The position numbers and the translations under genes were made by a program. Below the pieces are notes generated by a model, which saw nothing but the letters and a program-made list of their open reading frames with translations, was not told where the DNA came from and did not search any database. DNA of 64,000 nucleotides, from assembly GCF_004010195.1 (NCBI RefSeq), contig NC_057732.1, positions 39,531,916-39,595,915 on the forward strand, read 5' to 3'. Below, piece by piece: positions 1 through 59,860 of the stretch; position 1 is the stretch's first letter, and every line of letters begins with the position of its first letter. Origin of the DNA: Chiloscyllium plagiosum. Lineage: Eukaryota.

Positions 1-242
1 TCCCTCCTCCTTAAATTTATTCAATGTTCCAGTATCCACCACTCTCAGGGGTAGTGAATTCCACAGATCCATGACCCTTTGAGAGAAATAATTTCCCCAG
101 ACCTCTGTTTTAAATCTAGAACAAGAGAAAACATTCTCTCTATGTCTACTTTAACAATCCCCATTAGTATCCTACATACCACAATTAGGCCTCCTCTCAT
201 TCTTCTAAATTCTAATAAACAATATAGGCCGAAACCCTCAAA

Positions 243-376
243 AAAGATTCCTGAAGAAGGGCTTATGCCCGAAACGTCGATTCTCCTGCTCCTTGGATGC
301 TGCCTGACCTGCTACGCTTTTCCAGCAACCCATTTTTCAGCTCTGATCTCCAGCATCTGCAGTCCTCACTTTCCGT
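243..376 (+). mobile_element. Short Penelope-derived element (family A 3' end) with minimal hammerhead core
   Basis: CTGAAGA-A-GGGC-TTAT-GCCC-GAAA-CGTC at 251-278; ends CAGTCCTCACTTTC; flanked by the 14-bp direct repeat CCGAAACCCTCAAA (229-242, 377-390); many related copies in the window. Confidence 0.75.
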
Positions 377-390
377 CCGAAACCCTCAAA

Positions 391-3684: not shown

Positions 3685-4220
3685 GCAAAGTCACCACAGT
3701 CCTATCAGACCATAGTGTTACTCTCTGTTGAGAGAGATATGACTTGTGGGTGATTTAACCTGAAGATCACCATGCCACCTGTGAGGGGTGGAGTTGAGAA
3801 GGATAGTTCTTTATGGAAACAAAATCAGAAATTGCTGAAAAAAACTCAGCAGGTCTGGCAGCATCTGTGAATAGGACAAAGTGAGGACTGCAAATACTGG
3901 ATATCAGAGTCAAAACGTATGGTGCTGGAAAAGCGCAGCCGGTCAGGCAGCATCCGAGGAGCAGGAGAATCGACATTCTGACAACTCTCCTGCTCCTCAG
4001 ATGCTGCCTGACTGGCTGTGCTTTTCCAGCGCCACATTGTTTCGCTTTTGTGATTAGGAAAAAGATTCACTGAACTCAAAATGTTCACTCTGCTTTCTCT
4101 CCACAAATGCTGCCAGACCTAAGTTTTTCCAGCAGTTTCTGATTTTGTTTCTGCTTTCCAGCATCTGCAGTTCTTTGGTTTTTCTTTCATGGTAACCTCA
4201 GTCAGTAATGGCATCACTCT
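3685..4220 (-). mobile_element. tRNA-derived SINE interrupted by two nested Penelope-derived fold-back elements
   Basis: 3685-3816 and about 4184-4220 match the SINE copies at 38205-38415 and 60325-60450. Outer inverted repeat at about 3817-3870 / 4098-4150; inner family A hairpin at 3877-4037. Confidence 0.65.
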
Positions 4221-7550: not shown

Positions 7551-9541
7551 AGGGTTTTTACAAATATATTAAGGACAAAAGGGGAACTAGGGAGAGAATA
7601 GGGCCCTCAAAGATCAGCAAGGCGGCCTTTGAGCAGAACCACAGAAAATGGGGGAGATACTAAATGAATATTTTGCATCAGTATTTACTGTGGAAAAGGA
7701 TATGGAAGATGTAGACTGTAAGGATATAGATGGTGACATCTTGTAAAATGTCGAGATTACAGAGGAGGAAGTGCTGGATGTCTTGAAATGGTTAATGGTG
7801 GATAAATCCCCAGGACCTGATCAGGTATACCCGAGAACTCTCTGGGAAGCTAGAGAAGTGATTGCTGGGCCTCTTGCTGAGATATTTGTATCATCGATAG
7901 TCACAGGTGAGGTGTCGGAAGACTGGAGGTTGGCAAATATGGTGCCACTGTTTTTGAAGGGCAGTAAAGACAAGCCAGGGAACAATAGACCGGTGAGCCT
8001 GACCTTGGTGGTGGGCAAGTTGTTGGAGGGAATCCTGAGGGACAGGATGTACATGTATTTGGAAAGGCAAGGACTGATTTGGGATAGTCAACATGGCTTT
8101 GTGCATGGGGAATCATGTCTCACAAACCTGATTGAGTTTTTTGAAGAAGTAACAAAGAAGATTGATGAGGGCAGAGCAGTAGATGTGATTTGTATGGACT
8201 TCAGTAAGGCGTTCGATAAGGTTCCCCATGGGAGACTGATTAGCAAGGTTAGATCTCGTGGAATACAGGGAGAACTAGCCATTTGGATACAGAACTGGCT
8301 CAAAGGTGAGGGTGGTGGTGGAGGGTTGTTTTTCAGACTGGCGGCTTGTGACCAGTGGAGTGCCACAAGGATCGGTGCTGGGCCCTCTACTTTTTGTCAT
8401 TTACATAAATGATTTGGATGCGAGCATAAGAGGTACGTTAGTAAGTTTGCAGATGACAGCAAAATTGGAGGTGTAGTGGACAGCTTACAACAGGATCTGG
8501 ATCAGATGGGCCAATGGGCTGAGAAGTGGCAGATGGAGTTTAGTTCAGATCAATGCGAGGTATTGCATTTTGGGAAAGCAAGTCTTAGCAGGGCTTATAC
8601 ACTTAATGGTAAGGTCCTAGGGAGTGTTGCTGAACAAAGAGACCTTGGAGTGCAGGTTCATAGCTCCTTGAAAGTGGAGTTGCAGGTAGATAGGATACTG
8701 AAGGCGTTTGGTATGCTTTCCTTTATTGGTCAGAGTATTGAGTACAGGAGTTGGGAGGTCATGTTGCGGCTGTACAGGACATTGGTTAAGCCACTATTGG
8801 AATACTGCGTGCACTTCTGGTCTCCTTCCTATCGGAAAGATGTTGTGAGACCTGAAAGGGCTCAGAAAAGATTTACAAGGATGTTGCCAGGGTTGGTGGA
8901 TCTGAGCTACAGGGAGAGGCTGAACAGGCTGGGGCTGTTTTCCCTGGAGCGTCTGAGGCTGAGGAATGACCTTATAGAGGTTTACAAAATTATGTGGGGC
9001 ATGGATAGGATAAATAGGCAGAGTCTTTTCCCTGGGGACGGGGAGTCCAGAACTAGGGGGCATAGGTTTAGGGAGAGAGGGGAAAGATATAAAAGAGACC
9101 TAAGGGGCAACATTTTCACACAGAGGGTGGTACGTGTATGGAATGAGCTGCCAGAGGAAGTGGTGGATGCTGGTACAATTGCAACATTTAAGAGGGTAAA
9201 AACAATGACTGCAGATGCTGGAAACCAGATTTTGGATTAGTGGTGCTGGAAGAGCACAGCAGTTCAGGCAGCATCCGAGGAGCAGCAAAATCGACGTTTC
9301 GGGCAAAAGAACTTTGCTGCTCCTCGGATGCTGCCTGAACGTCTGTGCTCTTCCAGCACCACTAATCCAAAAAATGCAACATTTAAGAGGCATTTGAATG
9401 GGTATATGAATAGGAAGGGTTTGGAGGGATATGGGCCGGGTGCTAGCGGGTGGGACTAGATTGGTTGGGATATCTGGTCAGCATGGACGGGTTGGACCGA
9501 AGGGTCTCTTTCCATGCTGTACATCTCTATGACTCTATGAT
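7551..9541 (+). mobile_element. CR1-clade LINE, 5'-truncated ORF2 (reverse transcriptase) with 3' tail
   Basis: ORFs 7771-8412 and 8476-9240 carry CR1 RT motifs (KSPGPD, RPVSLT, QHGF, DFSKAFDKV, LEYCVHFWSP); frameshifted; 3' tail TCTATGACTCTATGA. Confidence 0.93.
9196..9374. mobile_element. Penelope-derived fold-back element inserted in the CR1 LINE
   Basis: Inverted arms at about 9231-9289 / 9313-9373; 16-bp TSD TGCAACATTTAAGAGG at 9180-9195 and 9375-9390. Confidence 0.85.
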
Positions 9542-15740: not shown

Positions 15741-16140
15741 GAGAGAAAGTGAAGACTGCAGATGCTGGCGATCAGAGTCTAGTGTGGTGCTGGAAAGTAC
15801 AACAGGTCAGGCAGCATCCGAGGAGCAGGAAAATCGATGTTTCGGGCATAAGCTCTTCATCAGAAATGAGGCAGGTTTGCCGAGGGGCTGAGAGATAAAT
15901 GGGAGGAGTGTGTGGCTGGGGGAAAGGTAGCTGGGAATGTGATAGGTAGATGAAGGTGTGGGAGAAGGTGATGGGTCAGAGAGGAGGGTGGGAAAGACGA
16001 TGGACAGGTCAAGAGGGTGGTGCCTGGTTGGTGGATTGAGACTGGGATAAAGTGGGGAGAGAGGAAATAAGGAAACTGGTGAAATCCTCATTAATCCTGT
16101 GTGGTTGCAGGGCCTCAAGACACAAGATGAGGCGTTCTTT
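15741..16140 (-). mobile_element. Penelope-like element, family A 3' portion
   Basis: Colinear with 23540-23928; minus-strand hammerhead core CTGATGA-A-GAGC-TTAT-GCCC-GAAA at 15840-15863. Confidence 0.8.
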
Positions 16141-16231
16141 GACCATTTGACCTCAACCAATTTGAGCTGAGATCCAGTTCCACTTTCACAATCTAGACAT
16201 GCCTTAATTTCTAAAAATGTTATAACCTTAA

Positions 16232-22469: not shown

Positions 22470-22885
22470 AACACAACTGCAATACTGGAGATCTTAAACA
22501 AAAATATAAATTACTGGAAAAACTCAGCGGGTCTGGCAGTATTTGTGGGAAGAAAGCAGAGTTAACAGTTCAACAAATCTGGTGACTCTTCAGAACTAGC
22601 TGGACTCAAAACATTAACTCAGTTTTCTTCCCACAGAGAGCAAAAGTGAGGACTGCAGATGCTGGAAGCCAGAGTTTAGATCAGAGTGAAGCTGGAAAAG
22701 CACAGCAGGTCAGGCAGCATCCAAGGAACAGGAAAATCGACGTTTCGGGCAAAAGCCCTTCATTCCTGATGAAGGGCTTTTGCCCGAAATGTCGATTTTC
22801 CTGCTCCTCAGATGCTGCCTGACCTGCTGTGCTCTTTCTTCCTATAGATGCTGCCAGATCTGCTAAGTTTTGCTAGCAATTTTAG
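22470..22885. mobile_element. Penelope-derived family B element interrupted by a family A fold-back element (about 22638-22833)
   Basis: Inner near-perfect inverted repeat centred at about 22764 with CTGATGA-A-GGGC-TTTT-GCCC-GAAA at 22766-22789; degenerate TSD TTTCTTCC(C/T)A(C/T)AGA at 22624-22637 / 22835-22848. Confidence 0.8.
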
Positions 22886-23121: not shown

Positions 23122-26062
23122 CAGAACATAGAACATTACAGTGCAGTACAGGCCCTTCGGCCATCAATGTTGGGCCAACCTGTGGAACCAATCTGAAGCC
23201 TCTCTAATCTACACTATTCTATTCTCGTCCGTATGCCTATCCAATGACCATTTAAATGCCCTTAAAGTTGGTGAGTCCAATACTGTTGCAGGCCCCTACT
23301 AGCCTGAGTAATAAAACCACTTCTGACATCTGTCCTATATCTATCACCCCTCAAATTAAAACTATGTCCCCTCATTCTAGCCATTGCCATCCGAGGAAAA
23401 GGCTCTCACTATCCATCCTATCTAACCCTCTGATTATCTTTTATGTCTCAAATAAGTCACCTCTCAACCTTCTTCTCTCTAACGAAAATAGCCTCAAGTT
23501 CCTCAGTCTTTCCTCGTAAGACCTTCTCTCCATACCAGGAGAAAGTGAGGACTGCAGATGTTGGAGACCAGAGTTGAAAAATATGGTGCTGGAAAAACAC
23601 AGCAGGCCAGGCAGCATCCAAGGAGCAGGAGAATCGACGTTTCAGGCGTAAGTCCTTCTTCAGGAATGAGGCTGGTGTGCCAAGCGGGCTGAGATAAAAG
23701 GTAGGGGTGAGGGGCGCTGGGAATACGATAGGTGGAAGGAGGTGAGAGTGATAGGCCGGAGAGGTCGGGAAGAAGATTGCAGGTCAAAAGGGCGGTGCTG
23801 AATCCGGGGGTTGGGACTGAGATAAGGTGGGGGGAGGGGAAATGAGGAAGCTGGAGAAATCTACATTCATCCCATGTGGTTGGAGGGTTCCTCGGCGGAA
23901 GATGAGGCGCTCTTCCTCCAGGCGTCATNNNNNNNNNNNNNNNNNNNNNNNNNNNNNNNNNNNNNNNNNNNNNNNNNNNNNNNNNNNNNNNNNNNNNNNN
24001 NNNNNNNNNNNNNNNNNNNNNNNNNNNNNNNNNNNNNNNNNNNNNNNNNNNNNNNNNNNNNNNNNNNNNNNNNNNNNNNNNNNNNNNNNNNNNNNNNNNN
24101 NNNNNNNNNNNNNNNNNNNNNNNNNNNNNNNNNNNNNNNNNNNNNNNNNNNNNNNNNNNNNNNNNNNNNNNNNNNNNNNNNNNNNNNNNNNNNNNNNNNN
24201 NNNNNNNNNNNNNNNNNNNNNNNNNNNNNNNNNNNNNNNNNNNNNNNNNNNNNNNNNNNNNNNNNNNNNNNNNNNNNNNNNNNNNNNNNNNNNNNNNNNN
24301 NNNNNNNNNNNNNNNNNNNNNNNNNNNNNNNNNNNNNNNNNNNNNNNNNNNNNNNNNNNNNNNNNNNNNNNNNNNNNNNNNNNNNNNNNNNNNNNNNNNN
24401 NNNNNNNNNNNNNNNNNNNNNNNNNNNNNNNNNNNNNNNNNNNNNNNNNNNNNNNNNNNNNNNNNNNNNNNNNNNNNNNNNNNNNNNNNNNNNNNNNNNN
24501 NNNNNNNNNNNNNNNNNNNNNNNNNNNNNNNNNNNNNNNNNNNNNNNNNNNNNNNNNNNNNNNNNNNNNNNNNNNNNNNNNNNNNNNNNNNNNNNNNNNN
24601 NNNNNNNNNNNNNNNNNNNNNNNNNNNNNNNNNNNNNNNNNNNNNNNNNNNNNNNNNNNNNNNNNNNNNNNNNNNNNNNNNNNNNNNNNNNNNNNNNNNN
24701 NNNNNNNNNNNNNNNNNNGGGATGAATGTAGATTTCTTCAGCTTCCTCATTTCCCCTCTTTCCCCCTCCCTACACCTTATCTCAGTCCCAACCCCCGGAT
24801 TCAGTAACGCCCTCTTGACCTGCAATCATCATCTCGACCTCTCCGGCCTATCACCCTCACCTCCTTCCACCTATCGTATTCCCAGCACCCCTCCCCTACC
24901 TTTTATCTCAGCCGGCTTGGCACACCAGCCTCATTCCTGAAGAAGGGCTTATACCCGAAATGTCGATTCTCCTGCTCCTCAGATGCTGCCTGGCCTGCTG
25001 TGTTTTTCCAGCACCACATTTTTCAACTTCCCTCCATACCAGGCAACATCTTAGTAAATCTCCTCTGAACCCGTTCCAAAACTTCCACATCCTTCCTATA
25101 ATCCGGTGACCAGAACTATACGCAATACTCCAAATGTGGCCACACCAGAGTTTTGTACAGCTACAGCATGATCTCATAGTTCCGAAACTCAATCTCTCTA
25201 CCAATAAAAGCTAATACACCATATGCCACCTTAACAACCCTTTCAACCTGGGTGGCAACTTTCAAGGATTGATGTATCTGGACACAGAGATCTCTCTGCT
25301 CATCTGCACTACCAGGAATCTTGCCATTAGCCCAGTACTCTCCATTCCTGTTATTCCTTCCAAAGTGAATTACCTCACACTTGGCTGCATTAAAGTCCAT
25401 TTACTACCTCTCGGCCCAACTCTGCAGCTTATCTATGTAACTTTGTAACCTACACAGTCCTTCATCACTGTGTACAACTCCACTGACCTTCGTGTCATCT
25501 GCAAATTTACTAACCCATCCTTTTATGCCCTCATCCAGGGCATTTATAAAAATGACAATCAGCAGTGGACCCAAAACAGATCCTTGTGGTACCCACTAGT
25601 AACTGACCTCCAAAATGAATATTTCCCATCAGCCACCACCCTCTGTTTTCTTTCAGCTAGTCGATTTCTGATCCAAACTGCTAAATCCCCCTCAATCCCA
25701 TGCCGCCTTATTTTATGCAATAGCCTACCAAGAGGAACCTTATCAAATGCCTTACTGAAATCCACATACACCACATCAACTGCTTTACCCTCATCCACTT
25801 GTTTGGTCACCTTCCCAAAGAACTCAATTAGGTTTGTGAGGCACGACCTACTCTTCACAAAACTTGACTATCCCTAATCAACTTATTTCTTGCTAAATGA
25901 TTATAAATCCTACCTCTTCTAACCCTTTCCAACACTTTACCCACAACCAAAGTAAGGCTCACCGGTCTATAATTTCCTGGGTTGTCTCTACTTCCCTTCT
26001 TGAACAAGGGAACATTTGCTATCCTCCAGTCTTCTGGCACTATTCCTGTAGACAATGAGCAC
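23122..26062 (-). mobile_element. CR1 LINE (second subfamily), interrupted by a Penelope fold-back insertion
   Basis: Minus ORFs with RT motifs (GNYRPVSLT, DFSKAFDKVP, KCEVIHFG); 3' tail ACAGAACATAGAACA at about 23121-23135. Confidence 0.9.
23540..25026. mobile_element. Large Penelope family A fold-back insertion spanning an assembly gap
   Basis: Arms at about 23572-23872 and 24719-25027 are reverse complements; TSD CTCCATACCAGG at 23528-23539 / 25032-25043; hammerhead cores at about 23637-23663 (-) and 24937-24964 (+). Confidence 0.85.
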
Positions 26063-28085: not shown

Positions 28086-30570
28086 TAGAGTCATAGAGAT
28101 ATAAGCTTGGAAACAAACCCTTCGGTCCAACCTGTCCATGCCGACCAGATATCCCAATCTAGTCCCACCTGACAGCACCCGACCCATATCCCTTCAAACC
28201 CTTCCTATTCATATACCCATCCAAATGCCTCTTAAATGTTGCAATTGTACCAGCCTCCACCACATCCTCTGGCAGCTCATTCCATACGCGTACCACCCTC
28301 TGCGTGAAAAGGTTGCCCCTTAGGTCCCTTTTATATCTTTCCCCTTGCACCCTAAACCTATGCCCTCTAGTTCTGGACTCCCTGACCCCAGGGAAAAGAC
28401 TTTGTCTATTTATCCTATCTATGCCCCTCATAATTTTGTAAACCTCTATAAGGTCACCCCTCAGCCTCCAACACTCCAGGGAAAATAGCCCCAGCCTGTT
28501 CAGCCTCTCCCTGCAGCTCAAATCCTCCAACCCTGGCAACATCCTTGTAAATCTTTTCTGAGCCCTTTCAAGTTTCACAACATCTTTCTGATAGGAAGGA
28601 GACCAGAATTGCATACAATATTCCAAGAGTGACCTAACCAAATGTCCTGTACAGATGCAGCATGACCTCCAACTCCTGTACTCAATATTCTGACCAATAA
28701 AGGAAAGCATACCAAATGCCTTCTTCACAATCCTATCTACCTGCGACTCCACTTTCAAGTAGCTATGAACCTGCACTTCAAGGTCTCTTTGTTCAGCAAC
28801 ACTCCCTAGGACCTTACCATTAAGTGTATAAGTCCTGCTAAGATTTGCTTTCCCAAAATGCAGCACGTTGCATTTATCTGGATTAAACTCCATCTGCCAC
28901 TTCTCAGCCCATTGGCCCATCTGGTCCAGATCCTGTTGTAATCTGAGGTAACCCTCTTTGCTGTCCACTACACCTCCAATTTTACTGTCAACTGCAAACT
29001 TACTAACTATACCTCTTATGATCGCATCCAAATCATTTATGTAAATGACAAAAGGTAGAGGGCCCAGCACCGATCCTTGTGGCACTCCACTGGTCACAGG
29101 CCTCCAGTCTGAAAAACAACCCTCCACCACCACCCTCTGTCTTCTACCTTTGAGTCAGTTCTGTATTTAAATGGCTAGTTCTCCATGTATTCCATGAGAT
29201 CTAACCTTGCTAATCAGTCTCCCATGGGGAACTTTGTCGAACACCTTACTGAAGTCCACATCGATCACATCTACTACTCTGCCCTCATCAATCATCTTTG
29301 TTACTTCTTCAAAAAACTCAATCAAGTTTGTGAGACATGATTTCCCACACACCAAAGCCATGTTGACTATCCCGAATTAGTCCTTGCCTTTCCAAATACA
29401 TGTACGTCCTGTCCCTCAGGATTCCCTCCAACAACTTGCCCATCACTGAGGTCAGACTCACTGGTCTATTATTCCCTGGCTTGTCTTTACCGCCCTTCTT
29501 AAACTGGCACCATGTTTGCCAACCTCCAGTCTTCTGGCCACTCACCTGTGACTATCGATAATAAAAATATCTCAGCAAGAGGCCCAGCAATCACTTCTCT
29601 AGCTTCCCACAGAGTTCTTGGGTATACCTGATCAGGTCCTAGGGATTTATCCACCTTTAACTGTTTCAAGACATCCAGCACTTCCTCCTCTGTAATCTGG
29701 ACATTTTGCAAAATGTCACCATCTATTTCCCTACAGTCTAAATCTTCCATATCCTTTTCCACAGTAAATACTGATGCAAAATANNNNNNNNNNNNNNNNN
29801 NNNNNNNNNNNNNNNNNNNNNNNNNNNNNNNNNNNNNNNNNNNNNNNNNNNNNNNNNNNNNNNNNNNNNNNNNNNNNNNNNNNNNNNNNNNNNNNNNNNN
29901 NNNNNNNNNNNNNNNNNNNNNNNNNNNNNNNNNNNNNNNNNNNNNNNNNNNNNNNNNNNNNNNNNNNNNNNNNNNNNNNNNNNNNNNNNNNNNNNNNNNN
30001 NNNNNNNNNNNNNNNNNNNNNNNNNNNNNNNNNNNNNNNNNNNNNNNNNNNNNNNNNNNNNNNNNNNNNNNNNNNNNNNNNNNNNNNNNNNNNNNNNNNN
30101 NNNNNNNNNNNNNNNNACACCTCAGTCACCTGCCCTGTCTTATTTCCCAAGAGTAGGTCAAGTTTTGCACCTTTTCTAGTAGGTACATCCACATATTGAA
30201 TCAGAAAATTGTCTTGTACGCACTTAAGAAATTCCTCTCCATCTAAACCCTTAACACTATGGTAGTCCCAGTTGATGTTTGGAAAGTTAAAATCCCCTAC
30301 CATAACTTTCCTATTATTCTTACAGATAGCTGAGATCTCCTTACATGTTTGTTTCTCAATTTCCCTCTGACTATTAGGGGATCTATAATACAATCCCAAT
30401 AAGGTGATCATCCCTTTCTTATTTCTCAGTTCCACCCAAATAACTTCCCTGGATGTATTTCCGGGAATATCCTCCCTCAGCACAGCTGTAATGCTATCCC
30501 TTATCAAAAATGCCACTCCCCCTCCTCTCTTGTCTCCCTTTCTATCCTTCCTGTAGCATTTGTATCCTGT
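28086..30570 (-). mobile_element. CR1 LINE ORF2 (APE endonuclease plus RT), decayed, with an internal gap
   Basis: Minus ORFs: endonuclease RKDR..RGGGVA, GLYYRSP, MVGDFNFP, LDLLL; [28 protein letters not shown]. Confidence 0.94.
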
Positions 30571-30682
30571 GTATTTATACAGCACTTTTCATAACCACTG
30601 GGCACCCAAAAGTCATTTTAAAGTGTTGTAACAGTGGAGCTGGTGATATATTAACAATCTCACTGGACTGTCTGTGTTCTGC

Positions 30683-31060
30683 AGAGATCATTCCCTCTGC
30701 GACTCCCTTGTTAGGTCCAACCCACCCTCCACTCCTGGCACCTTCCCTTGCTACCGCAAGAGGCGCAAAACCTACGCCTACGCCCACGCCTCCCCACTCA
30801 TCTCCATCTAATGCCCTAAAGGATCCTTCCACATCTGACAGAGGTTTACCTGTACCTCCACATATGTCATCTACTGTGTCCGTTGTGTCTGATGTGGACT
30901 CCTGTAAATTGGGGAGACAGGATACCAACTTGACGAACGTTTCAGAGAACGTCTCTGGGACTCATGTACTAAACCACCCCACCACCTTGTGGCTGAACAC
31001 TTCAAACTTCCCCTCCCACTCCACCAAGGACGTGCAAGTGGGCCACCTCCACCACCGTGT
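30683..31060 (+). mobile_element. Penelope-like element GIY-YIG endonuclease fragment (Neptune-type, pseudogenised)
   Basis: Manual translation: RDHSLCDSLVRS..PGTFPCYRK and RFTCTSTYVIYCVRCV*CGLL*IGETGYQLDERFRE..VAEHF, i.e. the VIY/YIG motif with Cys-rich linker and stop codons. Confidence 0.8.
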
Positions 31061-31576: not shown

Positions 31577-32284
31577 TGAATTCTCCTGATATCATTTAGT
31601 AATTAAGATAAATTCTGCTTTATCATATTGCATTCATAAAGATGACCACTTTCAATCTATCAAAAACTCTGCTGTAACTGGACTTAAACCCACTCTAAAT
31701 CTCCCCTCTAACTTTCTTGATTTTCCAAATTGCTCAACTAAAATTTCTGACTACCCACTGAAAGAGGGAAATGAAGGCATGTAGTTTCTACCTCTGCCTA
31801 TACCAAGCTGTCTCATAGAAGCATAGGCTTAGAAACTAGGAGCAGGAGTAGGCCATTCAGCCCTCTGCTCTGGCATTCAGTATGATCATGGCTGATTCTG
31901 TACCAAAATGCCCTTTATGCTTTCTCCTCATACTCCCTGATGCCTTTAAAATCTAAAAATTCATCTACCTCTTGATTGTATTCAGTGATTCTTCTCAGAA
32001 TGATCTAAGCTTCCAACAATTCTGTGAACAAAATCAGGGAGGATGTACGTGTCAAAGATCCTGAGATCAGTGCAAAATTTACTTTCCAGTTCCTGTCACC
32101 CCCTCCAGTATGTGAGATCTTTGCATGCAGTATATTGACAGTCTGGCAAGCAAGGCCACAGTCCTACATTTCTCTATAGCCTGGTGAACGTTACTGAATC
32201 CACCTATTTTTAAACTTCACAAAGATTTTTATTTTTCTCAATACCTCAATGCATATGAGCTATTTGCCTGAGTCTTCCTTCTAG

Positions 32285-32402
32285 GAGAAAGTGTGGACTG
32301 CAGATGTCATTCCTGATGAAGTGCTTATGCTCTAAACGTCGATTCTCCTGCACCTCGGATACTGTCTGACCAGCTGTGCTTTTCCAGCACCACACTTTTC
32401 AA
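32285..32402. mobile_element. Short Penelope family A rearranged fragment
   Basis: GAGAAAGTGTGGACTGCAGATG followed by an inverted part beginning TCATTCCTGATGAAG; degenerate hammerhead core at 32313-32340. Confidence 0.7.
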
Positions 32403-41630: not shown

Positions 41631-42472
41631 TGGTCATGGTTGTGTGGGCGCTGACAGCTGCTGCTCACCCTCCCCAGGCAAACCAGCCGGCTTCCCAGGC
41701 TGCTGTCTGAACAGCTTGTCTGTGCATTTATCAGATCGTTTTTTCGTATTTATTTATTTATTTATTTTTCTAAAAAGAAAATTGCAATGGAGACATTTAA
41801 CTCAGTCCTTTGAGACCTTGAGGTTTTAATTTAACCTGGAAAAAAATGCTGTGATTTATTTTTGTCAAGGGAGTTGCACAGGTGTTTGAGCAGATTTTGT
41901 AGGGTTATGGGCACAAAGTGGGCATGGTGTGCAAATCCTGTGTAGTCTTGTCAAAGAGTCAGCACAAGCCAATGGGCTGAAATGTTTATCTTCTGTGCTG
42001 GAAGTTTCTATGATTCTATGAATGAAATTCTCAATTTCATGAATTGTAACCAGAGGGTACAGTTATTTTTAAAAAGATAGAAGGAATTGGGTAGGGATGA
42101 TCTAAAGCTGTTGTGCTGTGGGGTAAACTGGTCTGAAAGCATGACTGAAACAGATTAAATAATGGCTTTCAAAAAGGAACTGGATAACTAACAGGAGAGT
42201 GTTTTTGGGCAGTTGGGGGGTAAAAAGCAAATATGTAGAATTAATTGGATGCTTCTTTCAAGTAGCTATTATGAGCTGAACTGTTTCTTTTGTATAATTC
42301 TATAATATTGCTAATTACAATGTTAGTTAATATTCAGTGTTAATCTGTATCCCTACACTTTGGTTTTGAAGCTAGTTTGAATCTGTTTTATCCAAAGGTC
42401 ATTCTGAAACTTGGATAGATTTGTTTTTACTTTGGTCATACTTTCTGGTAAAGCTTCTGAATTTCTAAAGAG

Positions 42473-42605
42473 AAAATGAGGACTGCAGATGCTGGAGATA
42501 GAGCTGAAAAATGTGTTGCTGGAAAAGTGCAGGTTTTTGGGCATAAGCCCTTCTCCTCCTTGGATGCTGCCTGACCTGTGCTTTTCCAGCAACACATTTT
42601 TCAGC
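42473..42605. mobile_element. Penelope family A fold-back mini-element
   Basis: Arms AGAGCTGAAAAATGTGTTGCTGGAAAAG / CTTTTCCAGCAACACATTTTTCAGCTCT; 17-bp direct repeat TCTGAATTTCTAAAGAG at 42456-42472 / 42606-42622. Confidence 0.85.
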
Positions 42606-42689
42606 TCTGAATTTCTAAAGAGCTTGTCAGGTTAGACTTGAAAGTTCGATTGTCTGTCTTTCTTCACCTACTACCAGACCTGAGTTTTC

Positions 42690-43890: not shown

Positions 43891-46217
43891 CACTTGGTTT
43901 TTATGTCAGATCTCCGTCTTCTGTGTTTTGCTTTTATTTGAGCTGTGCTAATTTTCACTTCAAAAATTTTAATATATACAAACAACCTTTTTTAAGGTGT
44001 GGCAGTTTCATGGTAACTTTCAGCTGTTTTCAGTACAGTCCTGTGCTGTTTGATTCAATCTGTACTATGCAAAATGTTTTTAAATGCTTGTTCTTGGCTG
44101 ATTCTCCTACTGCCAGTATTTTGCTTTGTGCTGTATAAATTGTATCATGTTACAGCCATGCATGCAGAATTCCCAATCTTGTGTTGTGAAGAGACCTGAC
44201 AAAGACAAATGAACCAAGAACACTTTGTTTTTCATTCCACTGAAATCTTACCATTGTTACTGCAGTGATGTTAGACTTTGATCCTTCCTTCCATATTAGC
44301 TGATATTGTTGCTTGCTGGTTTTGTGGGGCAGAAAGTTGATCCTCTCCTTATGCCAGTTCTTGGTCCATCAACTCTTCAAATTTAAAGTACTCTCCTATA
44401 TATTCAAATGTGATACATGGTCTTGGATCTGTGGCCTCTAAATCTAGTGATAATTGGTCTCTTGCATATCTCTGACTGCCTTCACCTTTCTTCATGACCA
44501 AATCTTCAATTGCCTAGGTCTGGAGTGCTGGAACCACTCCCTCAAACCCATGTGCCACCATTTTCTCAGTTCCTTTGTTCCTCAAAGCTGACTTCTTCTT
44601 TTGGGGTTTCAGTCACGTGAACCTATTTTAGCTTTTGTGCAATCTTTTATTAAAGGTGCTATGTGCACATTTTGTGAAAAGAAGGGCTCAGTTGGTAGTG
44701 TTTATTTTGGAAGTCGGTATCATTGCCGTCTCTGAATAAATTTTGTGATTTGTTTGTGGAACTTGGGGATAACTTTTTTTGCTTACAAATTGTTTTTGTG
44801 AATGGGAACAGGAAGCAGTGAGATGTTTGTAGTTGAGCAGAGATATTTGCTTTTAAATATGATCTTTTTGTGCTTATTCAGATCTTTTTGATCTTCTCCT
44901 TCATAAGATACAGAAATTTAGAATGAGAACTAAACAGCACAAGAAACAATTCAGCCTCTCTAACTAACTATAAAGGTTATAATGAACTGCCACATAAGTT
45001 GGTTTTTAAACTGAAATTTATTATGAAGTAGCTTTGACTAGATATTTAAAATTAATCAAAGAACAAGTCCATGGTACAGTGAAGGGGTTTCAGAAATTCA
45101 AAGTAATTTTAATGGTAGATATTTTGAGAAACCATTATATTAAATGAAAAGCAGAGGGAGATTTTGAAGTCTAGCAGACAAATGAGTTGCACGCAGTTTT
45201 TTTCAGAAGCCTGGAATAGGGAAGGAGGGGGGTCCTGAAAGTGGAATAACCTCTTCAGTGATTGGAAGAAAAATAAACTATTTAAGTGGAGAACTAGTAA
45301 TTCTGGCAAAATAGTTTACATTTTTTTTCTAACTTGTTCAGGAGTGCATGAGGTGTAGATAATTTGCAATTTAAAAACATTCCATCTTATGGGAATCTAA
45401 TCTAATCTTAAAAAAACCTTGCTTTTGGCACCTCTTACAGTACTTTTGGAATGTTGTCACTCCTACACAATAGGAAACATGGCAACCGTTTGCACATAGC
45501 ATGCTTCAACAACCTACAGTGTTATAATGACCAGAATTTACATGGATTATTGAAGATAAATATTGGTCAGGGTTAATTCCATTTGTTCCATTGTTGGCAG
45601 CCAGAAAATTGTACCTCTGGCAGTGTATTCCTGGAGAATGTCAAACTGAATTTTGTGCTCAAGTGCATGGAGAGGGTTTTGAGTTCTCCAGAATTCTGAC
45701 TGAGTCAAGAACACTGAGCTATAGCAGGTAATGATCAATATTTCACATGGGCTTGCATTAGAAAGGACTTTGAGTCAGCAACTGGATATTCGTAAAATAC
45801 TTTTTAGGTTCATGAACTAATGAGCCACAGTCACCACCTCCATATTTCGCAATGCTGTGGACTGAGGTTTAACTGACGGTTTTTTTATTACTGTGGGACA
45901 TATAATTTTTAGGATTCTGTTAAGAATGACAAGAGGGCTGAGTTTATGTAGAGTCAAGAGAAACCATTTTTGCAGATATCATGAGACAGGAATTGGAAAT
46001 TAAAGAAGATAGATTTCCAAGGATTCCAGCAGCATTGTCACAAGGACGAATGTCTCTCATAATACTTGGTCACAGAGTAACAGCAATATGTCTATATTTA
46101 AGCCTGTTGCTGGCTGGAGTTATTCATGTCTGAGTTACAGAATCCTATAGTACAGAGACCTTTTGGCCCATTAAGTCTATATTGCCTAAAATATACAAAC
46201 TGCACGTCCCACTTTTC

Positions 46218-46296
46218 TGGTATAGGAGAATGGTATAGGAGAATGGTATAGGAGAATGGTATAGGAGAATGGTATAGGAGAATGGTATAGGAGAAT
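46218..46296. repeat. Perfect 13-bp tandem repeat (TGGTATAGGAGAA)x6
   Basis: Six identical units read directly from the sequence. Confidence 0.95.
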
Positions 46297-46780
46297 TCCC
46301 ACCTCAACTACCCTTCCAGGGAGTGGTATCATAGACTGCTGCATTTAGGGAAACAGCTGATTTCTATTATCCTCTTCATGCCCCTCTTGTACATCTCCAT
46401 CAGGTCCCTTCCCCCTCAACCTTCTCTGCTCCAAAAAGCACCAGCATCTCTTAGTGAAATGTGACATCCCAGATGATATCCTGGTGAATCTCCTTTGCAC
46501 CCCCTCTGTGCAATCATAGCTTGCCTATAGTGTGGTCTCCGGAACTGCATACAGTACTCCAGTTGTGGCCGAACACACATTCTGTACAGCTCCAACATGA
46601 CCACCTGCTCTTGTGATCTGTGCCACAACTGATTACAGGCAAGCATCCAGCATGCCTCCTTAACTACCCTCTTAACCTGTCCAGCCACCAAGCAAGTACC
46701 CCAGAGCCCTCTGCGCATCTTAGTATCTTGCCATTCATTGAGTACTTCCTTGTTTTGCTCCTTCCAAAGTGCGTCACCCT
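46297..46780 (-). mobile_element. CR1 LINE fragment (continues at about 47560-47670 and 48360-49000)
   Basis: Minus ORF VMLELYRMCVRPQLEYCMQF. Confidence 0.75.
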
Positions 46781-52874: not shown

Positions 52875-53430
52875 CAGATGTACAACATGGAAACAGACAC
52901 TTCGGTCCAACTCGTCTGCTGACCAGATATCCCAACCTAAGCTAGTCCCACCTGCCAGTACCTGGCCCATATCCCTCAACCCTTCCTATTCGTATGCCCA
53001 TCCAGATATGTTTTAAATGTTGCAATTGTACTCGCCTCCGCCACTTCTTCTGGCAGCCCATTCCCCACACATACCACCCTCTGCATGAAAAAGTTGTCCC
53101 TTAGGTCTCTTGTATCTTCCCCTTCCCCTACACCTATGCAGTCTAGTTTTGGACTCCCTCACCCCAGGGAAAAGACCTTTACTCTATCCATGCCCCTCAT
53201 GATTTTATAAACCACCTATAAGGTCACCCTTCAGTCTCCAGTGCTCCAAGGTAAACTGCCCTAGTCTATTCAATCTCTCCCTATAGCTCAAATCTTCCAA
53301 TCCCAGCAATATCCTTGTAAATCTTTTCTGAACTCTTTCAAATTTCACAACATCCTTCAAATAGGAAGGAGACCAGAATTGCACACAATATTCTGAAAGT
53401 GGCCGAACCAATGTCCTGTACAGCTGTAAA
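52875..53430 (-). mobile_element. CR1 LINE 3' fragment (same subfamily as 7551-9541)
   Basis: Minus ORF LYRTLVRPLSEYCVQFWSPSY..ERVQKRFTR. Confidence 0.9.
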
Positions 53431-55094: not shown

Positions 55095-55285
55095 AGATTA
55101 AACAAACAATCCAGGTCTTTTTAATATATAATTTCAGTTACATCACACTGTAAACCTTCTTGCTTTAATTTCTGTCTTTGGATCTTATACTCCACAACCA
55201 CCTGATGAAGGAGCAGTGCTCTGAAAGCTAGTGCTTCCAAATAAACCTGTTGGACTATAACCTGGTGTTGTGATTTTTTTAACTG
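55095..55285 (+). mobile_element. Penelope pseudo-LTR fragment (family C) with intact minimal hammerhead
   Basis: CAC-CTGATGA-A-GGAGC-AGT-GCTCT-GAAA-GCTA-GTG at 55199-55233, then AATAAACCTGTTGGACTATAACCTGGTGTTGTG. Confidence 0.7.
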
Positions 55286-58361: not shown

Positions 58362-59860
58362 CAGTGGGCAAGTTGTTGTAGGGAATCCTGAGGAACAGGA
58401 TGTACATGTATTTGGAAAGAGCTGAAAAATGTGTTGCTGGAAAAGCGCAGCAGGTCATAAATGCCCGAAATGTCGATTCTCCTGCTCCATGGATGCTGCC
58501 TGACCTGCGCTTTTCCAGCAACACATTTTTCAGCTCTGATCTCCAGCATCTGCAGTCCTCACTTTCTCCTATGTATTTGGAAAGGCAAGGACTGATTAGG
58601 GATAGTCAACATGGCTTTGTGTGCGGCCAATCATGTCTCTCAAACTTGATTGTGTTTTTTATTTGAAGAAGTAGCAAAGAGGATGGAGGACAGAGTGGTG
58701 GACATAATCAGTATGACCAGTAAGGTGTTCGGTAAGGTTCCCCATGGGACACTGGTGAGCAAGGTTAGATCTCATGGAATACAGGGGGAACTAGCTATTT
58801 GGATACAGAACTGACTCAAAGTAGGTGGTGGTGGAGGGTTGTTTTTTAGACTGGAGGCCTGTGACCAGTGGAGTGCCAGGAGGATTGGTGCTGGGTCCAG
58901 TAGTTTTTGTTGTTTTTATATAAAATGATTTGGATATGAGTTTGAGGTGTAGTTAGTAAGCTTGCAGATGACACAAGTTGGAGGTGTAGTGGACCGCAAA
59001 GGACATTACTACAATGGGATCTTGATCAGATGAGCCAGTAGGCTGAGAAGTGGCAGATGGCGTTTAATTCAGGTAAATGGACAGTGCTGCATTTTGGGAA
59101 AGCAAATCTTAGCAGGACTTATACACTTAATGGTAAGGTCCTAGGGAGTGTTGCTGAACGAAGACCTTGGAATGCAGGTTCTTAGCTCCTTGAAAGTAGA
59201 ATTGCAGGTAGATAGGATAGTGAAGGAGGTGTTTGTTATGCTTTCCTTGATTGGTCAGAGTATTGAGTACAGGAGTTGGGAGGTCATGCTGTGGCTGAAC
59301 AGGACATTGGTTAGGCCACTGTTGGAAAAGTGCGTGCAATTCTGGTCTCCTTCCTATCGGAAAGATGTTGTGAAACTTGAAAGAGTTCAGAAAAGATTTA
59401 AAAAGGATGTTGCCAGGGTTGGAGGATTTGAGCTATAGGGAAAGGCTGAACAGGCTGGGGCTGTTTTCCCTGGAGCGTCGGAGGCTGAGGGGTGACCTTA
59501 TAGAGGTTTATAAAATCATGAGGGGCATGGATAGGATAAATAGACAAGGCTGATTCCCTGGGTTCGGGGTGTACAGAACTAGAGGGCATAGGTTTAGGGT
59601 GAGGGGATGTAAAAGAGACCTAAAGGGGCAACTTTTTCTCACAGAGGGTGGTATGTGTGTGGAATAAGCTGCCAGAGGAAGTGGTGGAGGCTGGTACAAT
59701 TGTAACATTTTAAAAGGCATCTGAATGGGTATATGAATAGGAAGGGTTTGGAGGGATATGGGCTAGGTGCTGGCAGGTGGGACTAGATTAGTTTGGGATA
59801 TCTGGTCGGCATTGACGAGTTGGTCTGAAGGGTCTGTTTCCGGACTGTACGTCTCTGACT
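58362..59860 (+). mobile_element. CR1 LINE RT/3' fragment (same subfamily as 7551-9541)
   Basis: Colinear with 8010-9540; ORFs YLERQGLIRDSQHGFV and LEKCVQFWSPSYRKDVVKLERVQKRF. Confidence 0.92.
58420..58570. mobile_element. Penelope family A fold-back mini-element inserted in CR1
   Basis: 14-bp TSD ATGTATTTGGAAAG at 58406-58419 / 58571-58584; inverted arms AGCTGAAAAATGTGTTGCTGGAAAAGCGCAG / CTGCGCTTTTCCAGCAACACATTTTTCAGCT. Confidence 0.88.

What the first reader, a model, noticed from the sequence alone, without database searches (positions are those of the whole stretch)
243..376. Dispersed short Penelope-derived elements carrying minimal hammerhead ribozyme cores
Seen: the recurrent family A repeat contains CTGA(A/T)GA, a 4-bp stem with tetraloop (GGGC-TTAT/TTTT-GCCC) and GAAA-CGTC. 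Copies lie at 251-278, 15836-15863(-), 22766-22793, about 23637-23663(-), 24937-24964 and 32313-32340. This is the hammerhead catalytic core (CUGANGA/GAAA/GUC) with helix III reduced to the palindrome ACGT, which could pair only in a dimer. Established: metazoan Penelope-like retroelements encode minimal hammerheads in their pseudo-LTRs. Inference: the 130-190 bp copies with their own 14-17 bp TSDs may be a non-autonomous, ribozyme-bearing element mobilised by PLE reverse transcriptase, rather than only 5'-truncated PLEs. Stem I is weak in family A.
Basis: partly seen in the sequence, partly recalled or inferred. Interest (0 to 1): 0.7.

Follow-up and report, generated by a model that had tools for sequence, protein, structure and literature searches.

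The report
Penelope run-off copies carrying hammerhead ribozymes
These short repeats are abundant pieces of a known kind of jumping gene (Penelope-like) that carry a tiny self-cutting-RNA motif; most are likely DNA copies of just the capped front end of the element's own messenger RNA rather than a separate mobile family, and U6 RNA copies joined exactly at the predicted cut site suggest that the motif does cut in living cells.

Summary
The motif is real: 86 strict minimal-hammerhead hits in 1.46 Mb versus 0-1 in shuffles, and 83,753 exact cores in the genome. It lies in the pseudo-LTR of a Neptune-like Penelope element, a known arrangement. Only 2 of the 6 listed cores pass the strict descriptor; three of the listed copies are ends of long insertions.

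The short copies do not form their own lineage: they intermix with ORF-linked copies on a tree. They are not random truncations either: 119 of 262 sampled 5' ends fall in a 20-nt bin around a point 4 nt before CUGA (+1), versus 5 in the next bin upstream. An extra G is specifically enriched at +1 (4,025 versus 1,541 genome-wide). A second family shows the same wall.

Best reading: run-off cDNAs of the capped, uncut front of the element's mRNA, primed internally at about +130 or +95, often two joined head to head. All 7 U6 fusions found in this segment join at the predicted cut (+33), likely recording cleavage in vivo. This scan has noted the same picture before on other DNA, and the U6 lead came from those notes; I re-tested it here.

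The parts
229..242 (+). left copy of 14-bp target-site duplication
243..246 (+). four extra bases ending in G at the 5' junction, where long copies have C; the G is likely copied from the mRNA cap (inferred)
247..376 (+). short copy of the PLE pseudo-LTR segment +1 to about +130; +1 = 247, predicted transcript start in an initiator-like context (label recalled)
251..278 (+). minimal type-I hammerhead core: CUGAAGA, bulged A, 4-bp stem II with tetraloop, GAAA, palindromic helix III; predicted cut between 278 and 279 (+32/+33)
   Evidence: cut site supported by U6 fusions
377..390 (+). right copy of target-site duplication
3872..4038 (.). head-to-head pair, arms start at +27 and +36 (no core), about 11-bp duplication
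9207..9362 (.). head-to-head pair, long arm starts at +16, 16-19-bp duplication
15743..16145 (-). 400-bp 3' fragment of the PLE (back to -284), decayed core at 15836-15863; no duplication found
22643..22836 (.). head-to-head pair hinged at the hammerhead; core at 22766-22793
23537..25028 (.). one long inverted PLE insertion across a 790-N gap, 17-bp duplication; the minus arm runs into the ORF end; cores at 23636(-) and 24937(+)
32279..32401 (.). old copy (-1 to +94) with a short inverted 3' arm; core broken; no clear duplication
42470..42610 (.). head-to-head pair, 17-bp duplication
58418..58571 (.). head-to-head pair, arms start at +59 and +19, 14-bp duplication
30668..31039 (+). decayed fragment of the PLE endonuclease region, without pseudo-LTR
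   Evidence: no Pfam hit for its 44-aa piece
55202..55230 (+). minimal hammerhead of a second repeat family (B): different stem II and helix III palindrome; presumed PLE, ORF not checked

Best explanation
The repeat is the hammerhead-bearing pseudo-LTR segment of an endonuclease-positive, Neptune-like Penelope element, and the short copies are likely run-off ('strong-stop-like') DNA copies of the capped, uncut front of that element's own mRNA rather than a family with its own master. SHOWN: copies share two 3' ends (about +130 and +85-100) and a sharp 5' wall at about +1, 4 nt before CUGA, where an extra G is enriched. INFERRED: +1 is the transcription start; the element's protein nicks both target strands about 14-16 nt apart, primes internally at +130 and/or +95, and copies to the cap. 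The cDNA is then (i) joined directly, giving a single short copy such as 243-376, (ii) joined to the cDNA from the other nick, giving a head-to-head pair with one tailed arm, or (iii) carried onto another ORF-bearing RNA, giving a partial tandem. The ribozyme likely cuts a minority of transcripts at +32/+33, probably with help from protein or a second molecule; the 5'-OH product is occasionally ligated to U6 and retroposed. Short copies are likely dead ends.
For: Link to a PLE ORF: upstream sequence encodes a CxxxxCxxC linker and a weak GIY-YIG match (E 0.005 and 0.013, below cut-off); an ORF starts about 40 nt downstream of +130. 5' wall: of 262 usable arms (282 found; 20 dropped for N gaps or locus edges), 119 end in -10..+10, 5 in -30..-11 and 42 in +11..+30; stops per nt are 0.080 at +1..+5 versus 0.003-0.009 upstream. 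Extra G: 8 of 15 arms ending at +1 versus 27 of 131 elsewhere; genome-wide pyrimidine-G versus pyrimidine-A is 4,025:1,541 before +1 and 503:1,247 before +3, background ratio 0.63. An extra G at full-length L1 insertions is attributed to the cap (PMC11702581, passage). The conserved block starts at +1. Family B: 35 of 72 ends lie 9 nt before to 3 nt into the core, 3 in the 20 nt upstream. Tandems: of 30 loci chosen by the ORF start, 21 have a downstream pseudo-LTR piece and 15 of these begin at -5..+10. 61 of 66 inverted pairs have one long and one short 3' end. No separate lineage. Internal priming at two sites, extension of both strands and use of uncut RNA were shown in vitro for an Anolis PLE (PMC11167929). 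U6: 6 of 6 pattern matches join at +33, 0 in the window covering +1; 7 loci in all, of several sequence variants; ordinary arms stop at +33 in 3 of 190. RtcB ligation needs a 5'-OH (PMC6789731, section 7).
Against: No transcript 5' end was mapped: the one usable raw RNA run was dominated by read-through of host transcripts (95% ran on into unlike sequence) and showed no start pile-up. A non-templated C added by the RT would also give an extra G. The +3 control may be inflated by single-T deletions. The wall is about 20 nt wide, and 56 of 234 arms pass it, which needs longer templates. One haplotype occurs in 8 short and 0 long arms. Single arms mostly lack a TSD (17 of 85 at best). The RT domain was not shown and no full-length copy was found. 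A competing palindrome over the cut site is predicted to pair more strongly (-4.9 kcal/mol) than helix III (-3.1), so spontaneous dimer cleavage is doubtful. Two U6 copies join endonuclease-like PLE sequence away from any cut (L219, L223; read by eye).
Confidence: 0.7

Rival explanations
1. A separate non-autonomous, ribozyme-bearing mini-element (SINE- or retrozyme-like) is transcribed from short copies and mobilised in trans by the PLE protein.
For: Defined 5' and 3' ends; 211 of 262 usable arms are short; some carry 12-16-bp TSDs; one haplotype is short-only, 8 versus 0; +1 may be an internal promoter start (PMC2377424 shows an internal pLTR promoter in Drosophila Penelope); non-autonomous PLE derivatives exist (bioRxiv 2021.04.23.441226; 10.64898/2026.07.22.740005).
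Against: Short and long arms are intermixed (44 changes versus 46.7 shuffled; 18% of shuffles as low), and the nearest long arm is as close as the nearest short arm (0.056 versus 0.054). Pieces starting near +1 continue into the ORF. In the Anolis system the RNA needed lies partly downstream of the priming site (PMC11167929), which short copies lack. No head-to-tail arrays of the 130-nt unit were seen among the hits in 1.46 Mb.
Confidence: 0.12
2. Ordinary random 5' truncation of copies primed at the 3' pseudo-LTR, with an RT pause or a microhomology hot spot at the hammerhead edge; +1 is not an RNA end.
For: A continuous tail of 5' ends exists on both sides; many inverted junctions use 1-3-nt microhomology; best-of-library alignment can blur boundaries by a few nt.
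Against: The stop rate is low while RT crosses the folded core (+40 to +11: 0.007-0.013) and peaks only after it (0.08). The G excess is specific to +1. A second family with a different sequence has the same wall.
Confidence: 0.13
3. The short copies are made from ribozyme-cut RNA or from circular RNA, as proposed for PLE hammerheads.
For: U6 fusions indicate that a +33 end exists; 5 of 17 pieces with very short 3' ends stop at +31/+32 (22 rows, 5 dropped for edges or N).
Against: Ordinary 5' ends show no peak at +33 (6 at +32..+34 versus 9 at +26..+31 and 11 at +35..+40). Most copies keep the uncut core. Tandem junctions fall at variable ORF positions, not at a fixed circle junction.
Confidence: 0.05

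Closest known systems
Minimal hammerheads (min-HHR) in pLTRs of metazoan Penelope-like elements (Cervera and De la Pena 2014, PMC4209133; parts 1-2 of 4 read)
   Same: Type-I core, bulged base before stem II, G-C first pair, palindromic 15.2/16.2, short stem I; mostly dispersed single motifs, which the paper ascribes to truncated PLEs; reported for Neptune and Poseidon elements of fishes.
   Different: Here stem II is only 4 bp. Copies start at a fixed point at the 5' edge of stem I with an extra G, and there is a genomic record of cleavage; the parts read report neither and state that in vivo evidence is absent.
Anolis Poseidon element PAc (Frangieh et al. 2024, PMC11167929; parts 1-2 of 4 read)
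   Same: Two internal priming sites about a tail apart, both strands extended, uncut RNA as main substrate, protein-assisted hammerhead.
   Different: In PAc the ORF starts inside the hammerhead and priming is within the ORF; here the ORF starts about 40 nt after the outer priming site. That paper found no RNA-seq reads ending at the cut, and the parts read do not describe a 5' wall.
Inverted-pLTR insertions with a 30-40-bp tail of EN+ PLEs (PMC3846280; bioRxiv 2021.04.23.441226; passages)
   Same: Head-to-head arms, tail on one end, partial tandems, solo pLTRs.
   Different: Here they are mostly about 200-bp units (median 197) with TSDs. The Adineta paper explains inversions by self-priming on an antisense template and solo pLTRs by recombination or deletion.
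U6/LINE-1 chimeric pseudogenes made by RtcB ligation (Moldovan et al. 2019, PMC6789731; abstract and section 7)
   Same: U6 ending in 5 T joined to a retroelement RNA; needs a 5'-OH.
   Different: L1 partners are variably truncated; here all 7 join at one bond, the predicted ribozyme cut.
Non-LTR retrozymes (10.64898/2026.07.22.740005; part 1 of 5 and passages)
   Same: Non-coding, type-I hammerhead, derived from PLE pLTRs.
   Different: Defined by head-to-tail tandem units; here units are single or head-to-head, and tandems contain ORF pieces.

Membership tests
PLE minimal type-I hammerhead | CUGANGA / GAAA / NUH core around a paired stem II, above chance | tested here: met
   86 hits versus 0-1 in 8 shuffles; core columns 0.965 conserved
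PLE minimal type-I hammerhead | compensatory change in stem II and palindromic helix III | tested here: met
   pair +14/+23: G-C 168, A-U 8, about 1 expected (may be one event); families B and D have different paired stems, and B has a different palindrome
PLE minimal type-I hammerhead | stable stem I | tested here: inconclusive
   4 positions, U.U at one in 76 of 89 arms; fully paired in one subfamily
PLE minimal type-I hammerhead | self-cleavage, as a dimer or with protein | not testable with these tools
   indirect only: 7 U6 fusions at +33; folding predicts a competing duplex
Rfam hammerhead families | match to a covariance model | tested here: not met
   no hammerhead among 14 matches at E<=5
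EN+ Penelope-like element | C-terminal GIY-YIG endonuclease upstream of the pLTR | tested here: inconclusive
   PF01541 at E 0.005 and 0.013, below the curated cut-off, in 2 of 3 pieces, partial only
EN+ Penelope-like element | telomerase-like RT in the same ORF | not tested
   no locus with the RT core was examined; long copies are broken by N gaps
EN+ Penelope-like element | pLTR, partial tandems, inverted 5' copy, 30-40-nt tail at one end | tested here: met
   (61 of 66 pairs long plus short)
Neptune clade | Zn-finger motif in the RT-EN linker | tested here: met
   CxxxxCxxC about 30 aa before the GIY-YIG match; criterion from bioRxiv 2021.04.23.441226; no RT phylogeny made
Non-autonomous SINE-like element | own lineage distinct from autonomous copies | tested here: not met
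   tree and haplotypes
Non-autonomous SINE-like element | defined ends and TSDs | tested here: inconclusive
   ends defined; TSD in 17 of 85 single arms at best
Non-LTR retrozyme | head-to-tail tandem array of non-coding hammerhead units | tested here: not met
   none among hits in 1.46 Mb; arrays elsewhere in the genome were not searched

The most novel reading that the evidence does not exclude
PLEs regenerate their pseudo-LTR the way retroviruses do. The mRNA is capped at +1 and ended by hammerhead cleavage at +32 of the downstream pLTR, so the hammerhead core itself is a terminal repeat (R). Internal priming at +130/+95 makes a strong-stop cDNA that jumps to the 3' end through this repeat. 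The hundreds of thousands of short copies are failed first-strand transfers, and the U6 fusions are the record of the cut.
Probability: 0.2. Interest if true: 0.85.

Novelty: new member of a known kind. Interest (0 to 1): 0.5.

Why it matters
Two questions are stated as open in the papers read: what PLE hammerheads do (bioRxiv 2021.04.23.441226: function 'still unclear'; no reads at the cut in PMC11167929) and how pseudo-LTRs and tandems are regenerated (PMC2377424). This genome holds roughly 700,000 arms (extrapolated from 282 in 1.41 Mb; the +1..+130 segment alone is about 2% of the sample). Their ends predict a single-base transcription start, two priming sites and a cut site, each testable by 5' mapping and by the published in vitro assay. 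The element class and its ribozyme are known; the new part is what the copy ends say about mechanism.

Tried and rejected
Rfam scan: no hammerhead; the miRNA hits are the fold-back pairs, and the U6 hit at 53262 is chance. Sequencing runs: no RNA holder listed. Laying four runs: one gave no reads, one raw run showed read-through only, two are contigs of guessed RNA; no verdict on a start site. The first library-based end mapping was contaminated by an inverted copy and was redone; one script crashed after 20 of 30 loci and was replaced. The first 30 genome hits were biased by the query's 5' letters, so they were not used for end counts; the recurrent AAAG junction there is probably that bias. 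A 3' splice site as cause of the wall: rejected, as there is no AG before +1, and the AG near -23 is not conserved and has few ends. A second ribozyme cut at -1/+1: rejected, since helix III cannot pair there and family B lacks the triplet (by eye). The +31/+32 3' ends (5 of 17) may be CpG decay or internal deletions; treated as a hint only. Lunse et al. 2017 (PMC5785218) is not held; seen only as a citation. Literature searches found no paper on a capped 5' wall or on U6 fusion at PLE hammerheads; one search gave one unrelated paper. Supplements of PMC4209133 and PMC11167929 (its Fig. S2 shows copy coverage) were not opened and may bear on novelty. One endonuclease-region piece (L016) was not scanned against Pfam.

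Full report
Coordinates. +1 is window base 247, the A four bases before the CUGA of the core; the predicted cut lies between +32 and +33 (window 278/279). An 'arm' is one aligned piece of the repeat. The window lies in G000 (3.56 Gb), contig C23.

1. The observation. A strict descriptor (core, stem II of at least 4 bp, paired helix III, NUH) found 86 hits in the window plus 140 evenly spaced 10-kb stretches (1.464 Mb, 56.6 kb N), against 0-1 in each of 8 shuffles. An exact core pattern occurs 83,753 times in the genome, its reversed control 0 times. In the window only 251 and 22766 (and a family B core at 55202) pass; the other four are decayed. Three of the six are ends of long insertions: 23636(-) and 24937(+) belong to one inverted insertion with a 17-bp duplication, and 15836(-) to a 400-bp fragment. 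Rfam found no hammerhead.

2. What it belongs to. Long copies run upstream through about 230 nt of non-coding DNA into an ORF end. Two pieces from other loci match Pfam GIY-YIG weakly (E 0.005 and 0.013, below cut-off; a third, 44-aa window piece did not) and carry a CxxxxCxxC linker, the mark given for Neptune/Nematis PLEs (bioRxiv 2021.04.23.441226, passage). Downstream of +130, tandem copies continue into an ORF that starts about 40 nt later. The segment is therefore the pseudo-LTR of an EN+ Penelope-like element. The RT core was not examined and no full-length copy was found.

3. Copy ends in an unbiased sample. Of 282 arms, 20 were dropped (15 beside N gaps, 5 at locus edges). The remaining 262 5' ends fall as follows: 35 beyond -100, 21 in -100..-11, 119 in -10..+10 (peak: 15 at +1, 19 at +2), 42 in +11..+30, the rest further in. 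The stop rate per base is 0.007 at +21..+40, 0.034 at +6..+10, 0.080 at +1..+5, 0.053 at -5..-1 and 0.003-0.009 beyond -10; 56 of 234 arms pass -10. There is no peak at the cut. 3' ends cluster at +129..+131 and at +85..+100 (ends reported at +117-119 reflect a trimmed library). 61 of 66 head-to-head pairs combine a long and a short 3' end, 5 have two short ends, and 44 of 66 have a TSD, mostly 14-16 bp. Partners come from the same subfamily (distance 0.061 versus 0.156 at random, 31 pairs). Single arms carry a TSD in 10 of 85 (strict; control 1 of 420) or 17 of 85 (relaxed; control 2 of 251), some of them hidden inversions. Family B shows the same wall, with 35 of 72 ends from 9 nt before to 3 nt into the core and 3 in the 20 nt upstream, and also two 3' ends.

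4. The extra G. Arms ending exactly at +1 are preceded by G in 8 of 15, versus 27 of 131 for ends at +3..+60. Genome-wide, requiring a pyrimidine one base further out to exclude inverted-arm overlap, G versus A is 4,025 to 1,541 before +1 and 503 to 1,247 before +3; the background ratio is 0.63. The control may be inflated by single-T deletions, but the +1 ratio alone is four times background. An extra G at full-length L1 insertions is attributed to the cap (PMC11702581, passage). That +1 sits in an initiator-like context is from recall; Drosophila Penelope has an internal pLTR promoter (PMC2377424, passages). RNA reads did not test this.

5. A separate family? On a tree of 134 short and 53 long arms (13 intermediate arms left out; CpG-prone columns dropped) the label changes 44 times versus 46.7 in shuffles; the six commonest haplotypes occur in both classes; one haplotype is short-only (8 versus 0). 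Among 30 loci selected by the ORF start, 21 have a pseudo-LTR piece downstream of the ORF fragment: 15 begin at -5..+10 (two across N gaps) and 6 further upstream; 9 have none in the flank fetched. So RT that reaches about +1 can continue on another ORF-bearing RNA at a variable place, and the upstream pieces also tend to start near +1. The templates look like the element's mRNA. In the Anolis system the RNA needed extends beyond the priming site (PMC11167929), so copies ending at +130 are probably dead ends (inference).

6. The ribozyme. Conservation starts abruptly at +1: upstream 0.71, core 0.965, stem II 0.94, loop and N7 0.75, downstream 0.91 (+33..+85), 0.80 (+86..+100) and 0.95 (+101..+127). 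The core beats loop and upstream flank but hardly the downstream flank. CpG positions decay as expected of dead copies. One stem II pair covaries (G-C 168, A-U 8), and families B and D have other paired stems. Stem I begins at +1 and has a U.U mismatch, except in one subfamily. Folding prefers a competing self-duplex over the cut site (-4.9 versus -3.1 kcal/mol), so activity likely needs help, as for PAc.

7. A record of cutting. Following a lead from earlier scan notes, I examined 46 loci covering the 48 U6 matches returned: 4 join family A directly, all at +33; two join endonuclease-like PLE sequence elsewhere. A pattern open to junctions from about +20 to +50 gave 6 matches, all at +33; one covering about -11 to +19 gave none. 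The union is 7 loci with different flanks and several sequence variants; three have an inverted arm and a 13-14-bp duplication. Ordinary arms stop at +33 in 3 of 190 cases. U6 ligation by RtcB needs a 5'-OH partner (PMC6789731), which a hammerhead cut leaves and a cap blocks; this fits fusion at +33 and its absence at +1. Caveat: +32/+33 is a CpG, so a junction 1-2 nt earlier with decay cannot be excluded for any single locus.

8. Mechanism. Shown: fixed ends, G excess, pairing of long and short arms, shared lineage, U6 junctions. Inferred: transcription start and cap at +1, internal priming at +130 and +95 on both nicked strands, run-off, then direct joining, joining of two cDNAs, or a template jump; minority cleavage at +32/+33. 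Confidence 0.7. The boldest extension, a retrovirus-like strand transfer through the hammerhead as terminal repeat, rests only on this layout and on 5 of 17 short pieces ending at +31/+32; probability 0.2.

9. Against what is known. Minimal hammerheads in PLE pLTRs, their dispersal as single motifs, inverted copies, tails and internal priming are published (PMC4209133, PMC3846280, PMC11167929). My searches found no report of the capped 5' wall or of U6 fusion at the cut; supplements and Lunse 2017 were not seen. Earlier notes of this scan describe the same picture in this and other genomes; they are unchecked AI notes, not support. My run-off and cap reading was written down before I saw them; the U6 test came from them. 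Verdict: real, a new member of a known kind, with ends that make two open questions testable; interest 0.5.

Noticed in passing
window 3824-4174 and 22476-22879: Two family A head-to-head pairs sit at the same position inside copies of a related repeat (family C). In the whole sample only 3 of 282 arms lie beside such a site (54 sites found), two of them these, so a target preference is not established.
   Followed up: partly
L212, L213, L217, L222, L225-L232, L235, L238, L244-L246: Many U6 copies are followed directly or within a few bases by the start of one abundant tRNA-like short repeat (label recalled), suggesting frequent U6-SINE chimeras.
   Followed up: no
L234/L252 (G000:C31:9507338-9507615): Rearranged multi-piece U6 insertion, with inverted and repeated U6 segments, fused to family A at +33.
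   Followed up: partly
sample loci: A fourth minimal-hammerhead family (D) with a bulged U and a 5-7-bp stem II, 3 hits.
   Followed up: no
L114, L113, L149: Some inverted junctions carry a short palindromic spacer with the extra G on both arms, as if two cap-copied cDNA ends annealed.
   Followed up: no
L097:4204-4499: Five or six tandem 53-bp repeats matching part of the PLE ORF.
   Followed up: no
window 46205-46308: Tandem array of a 13-bp unit.
   Followed up: no
window 7669-9469, 28153-30588, 58718-59860: Long 86-97% identical copies of a LINE-like element; the ORF at 29731-30588(-) looks like an AP-endonuclease region (label recalled); the pair at 9207 is inserted in one copy.
   Followed up: no
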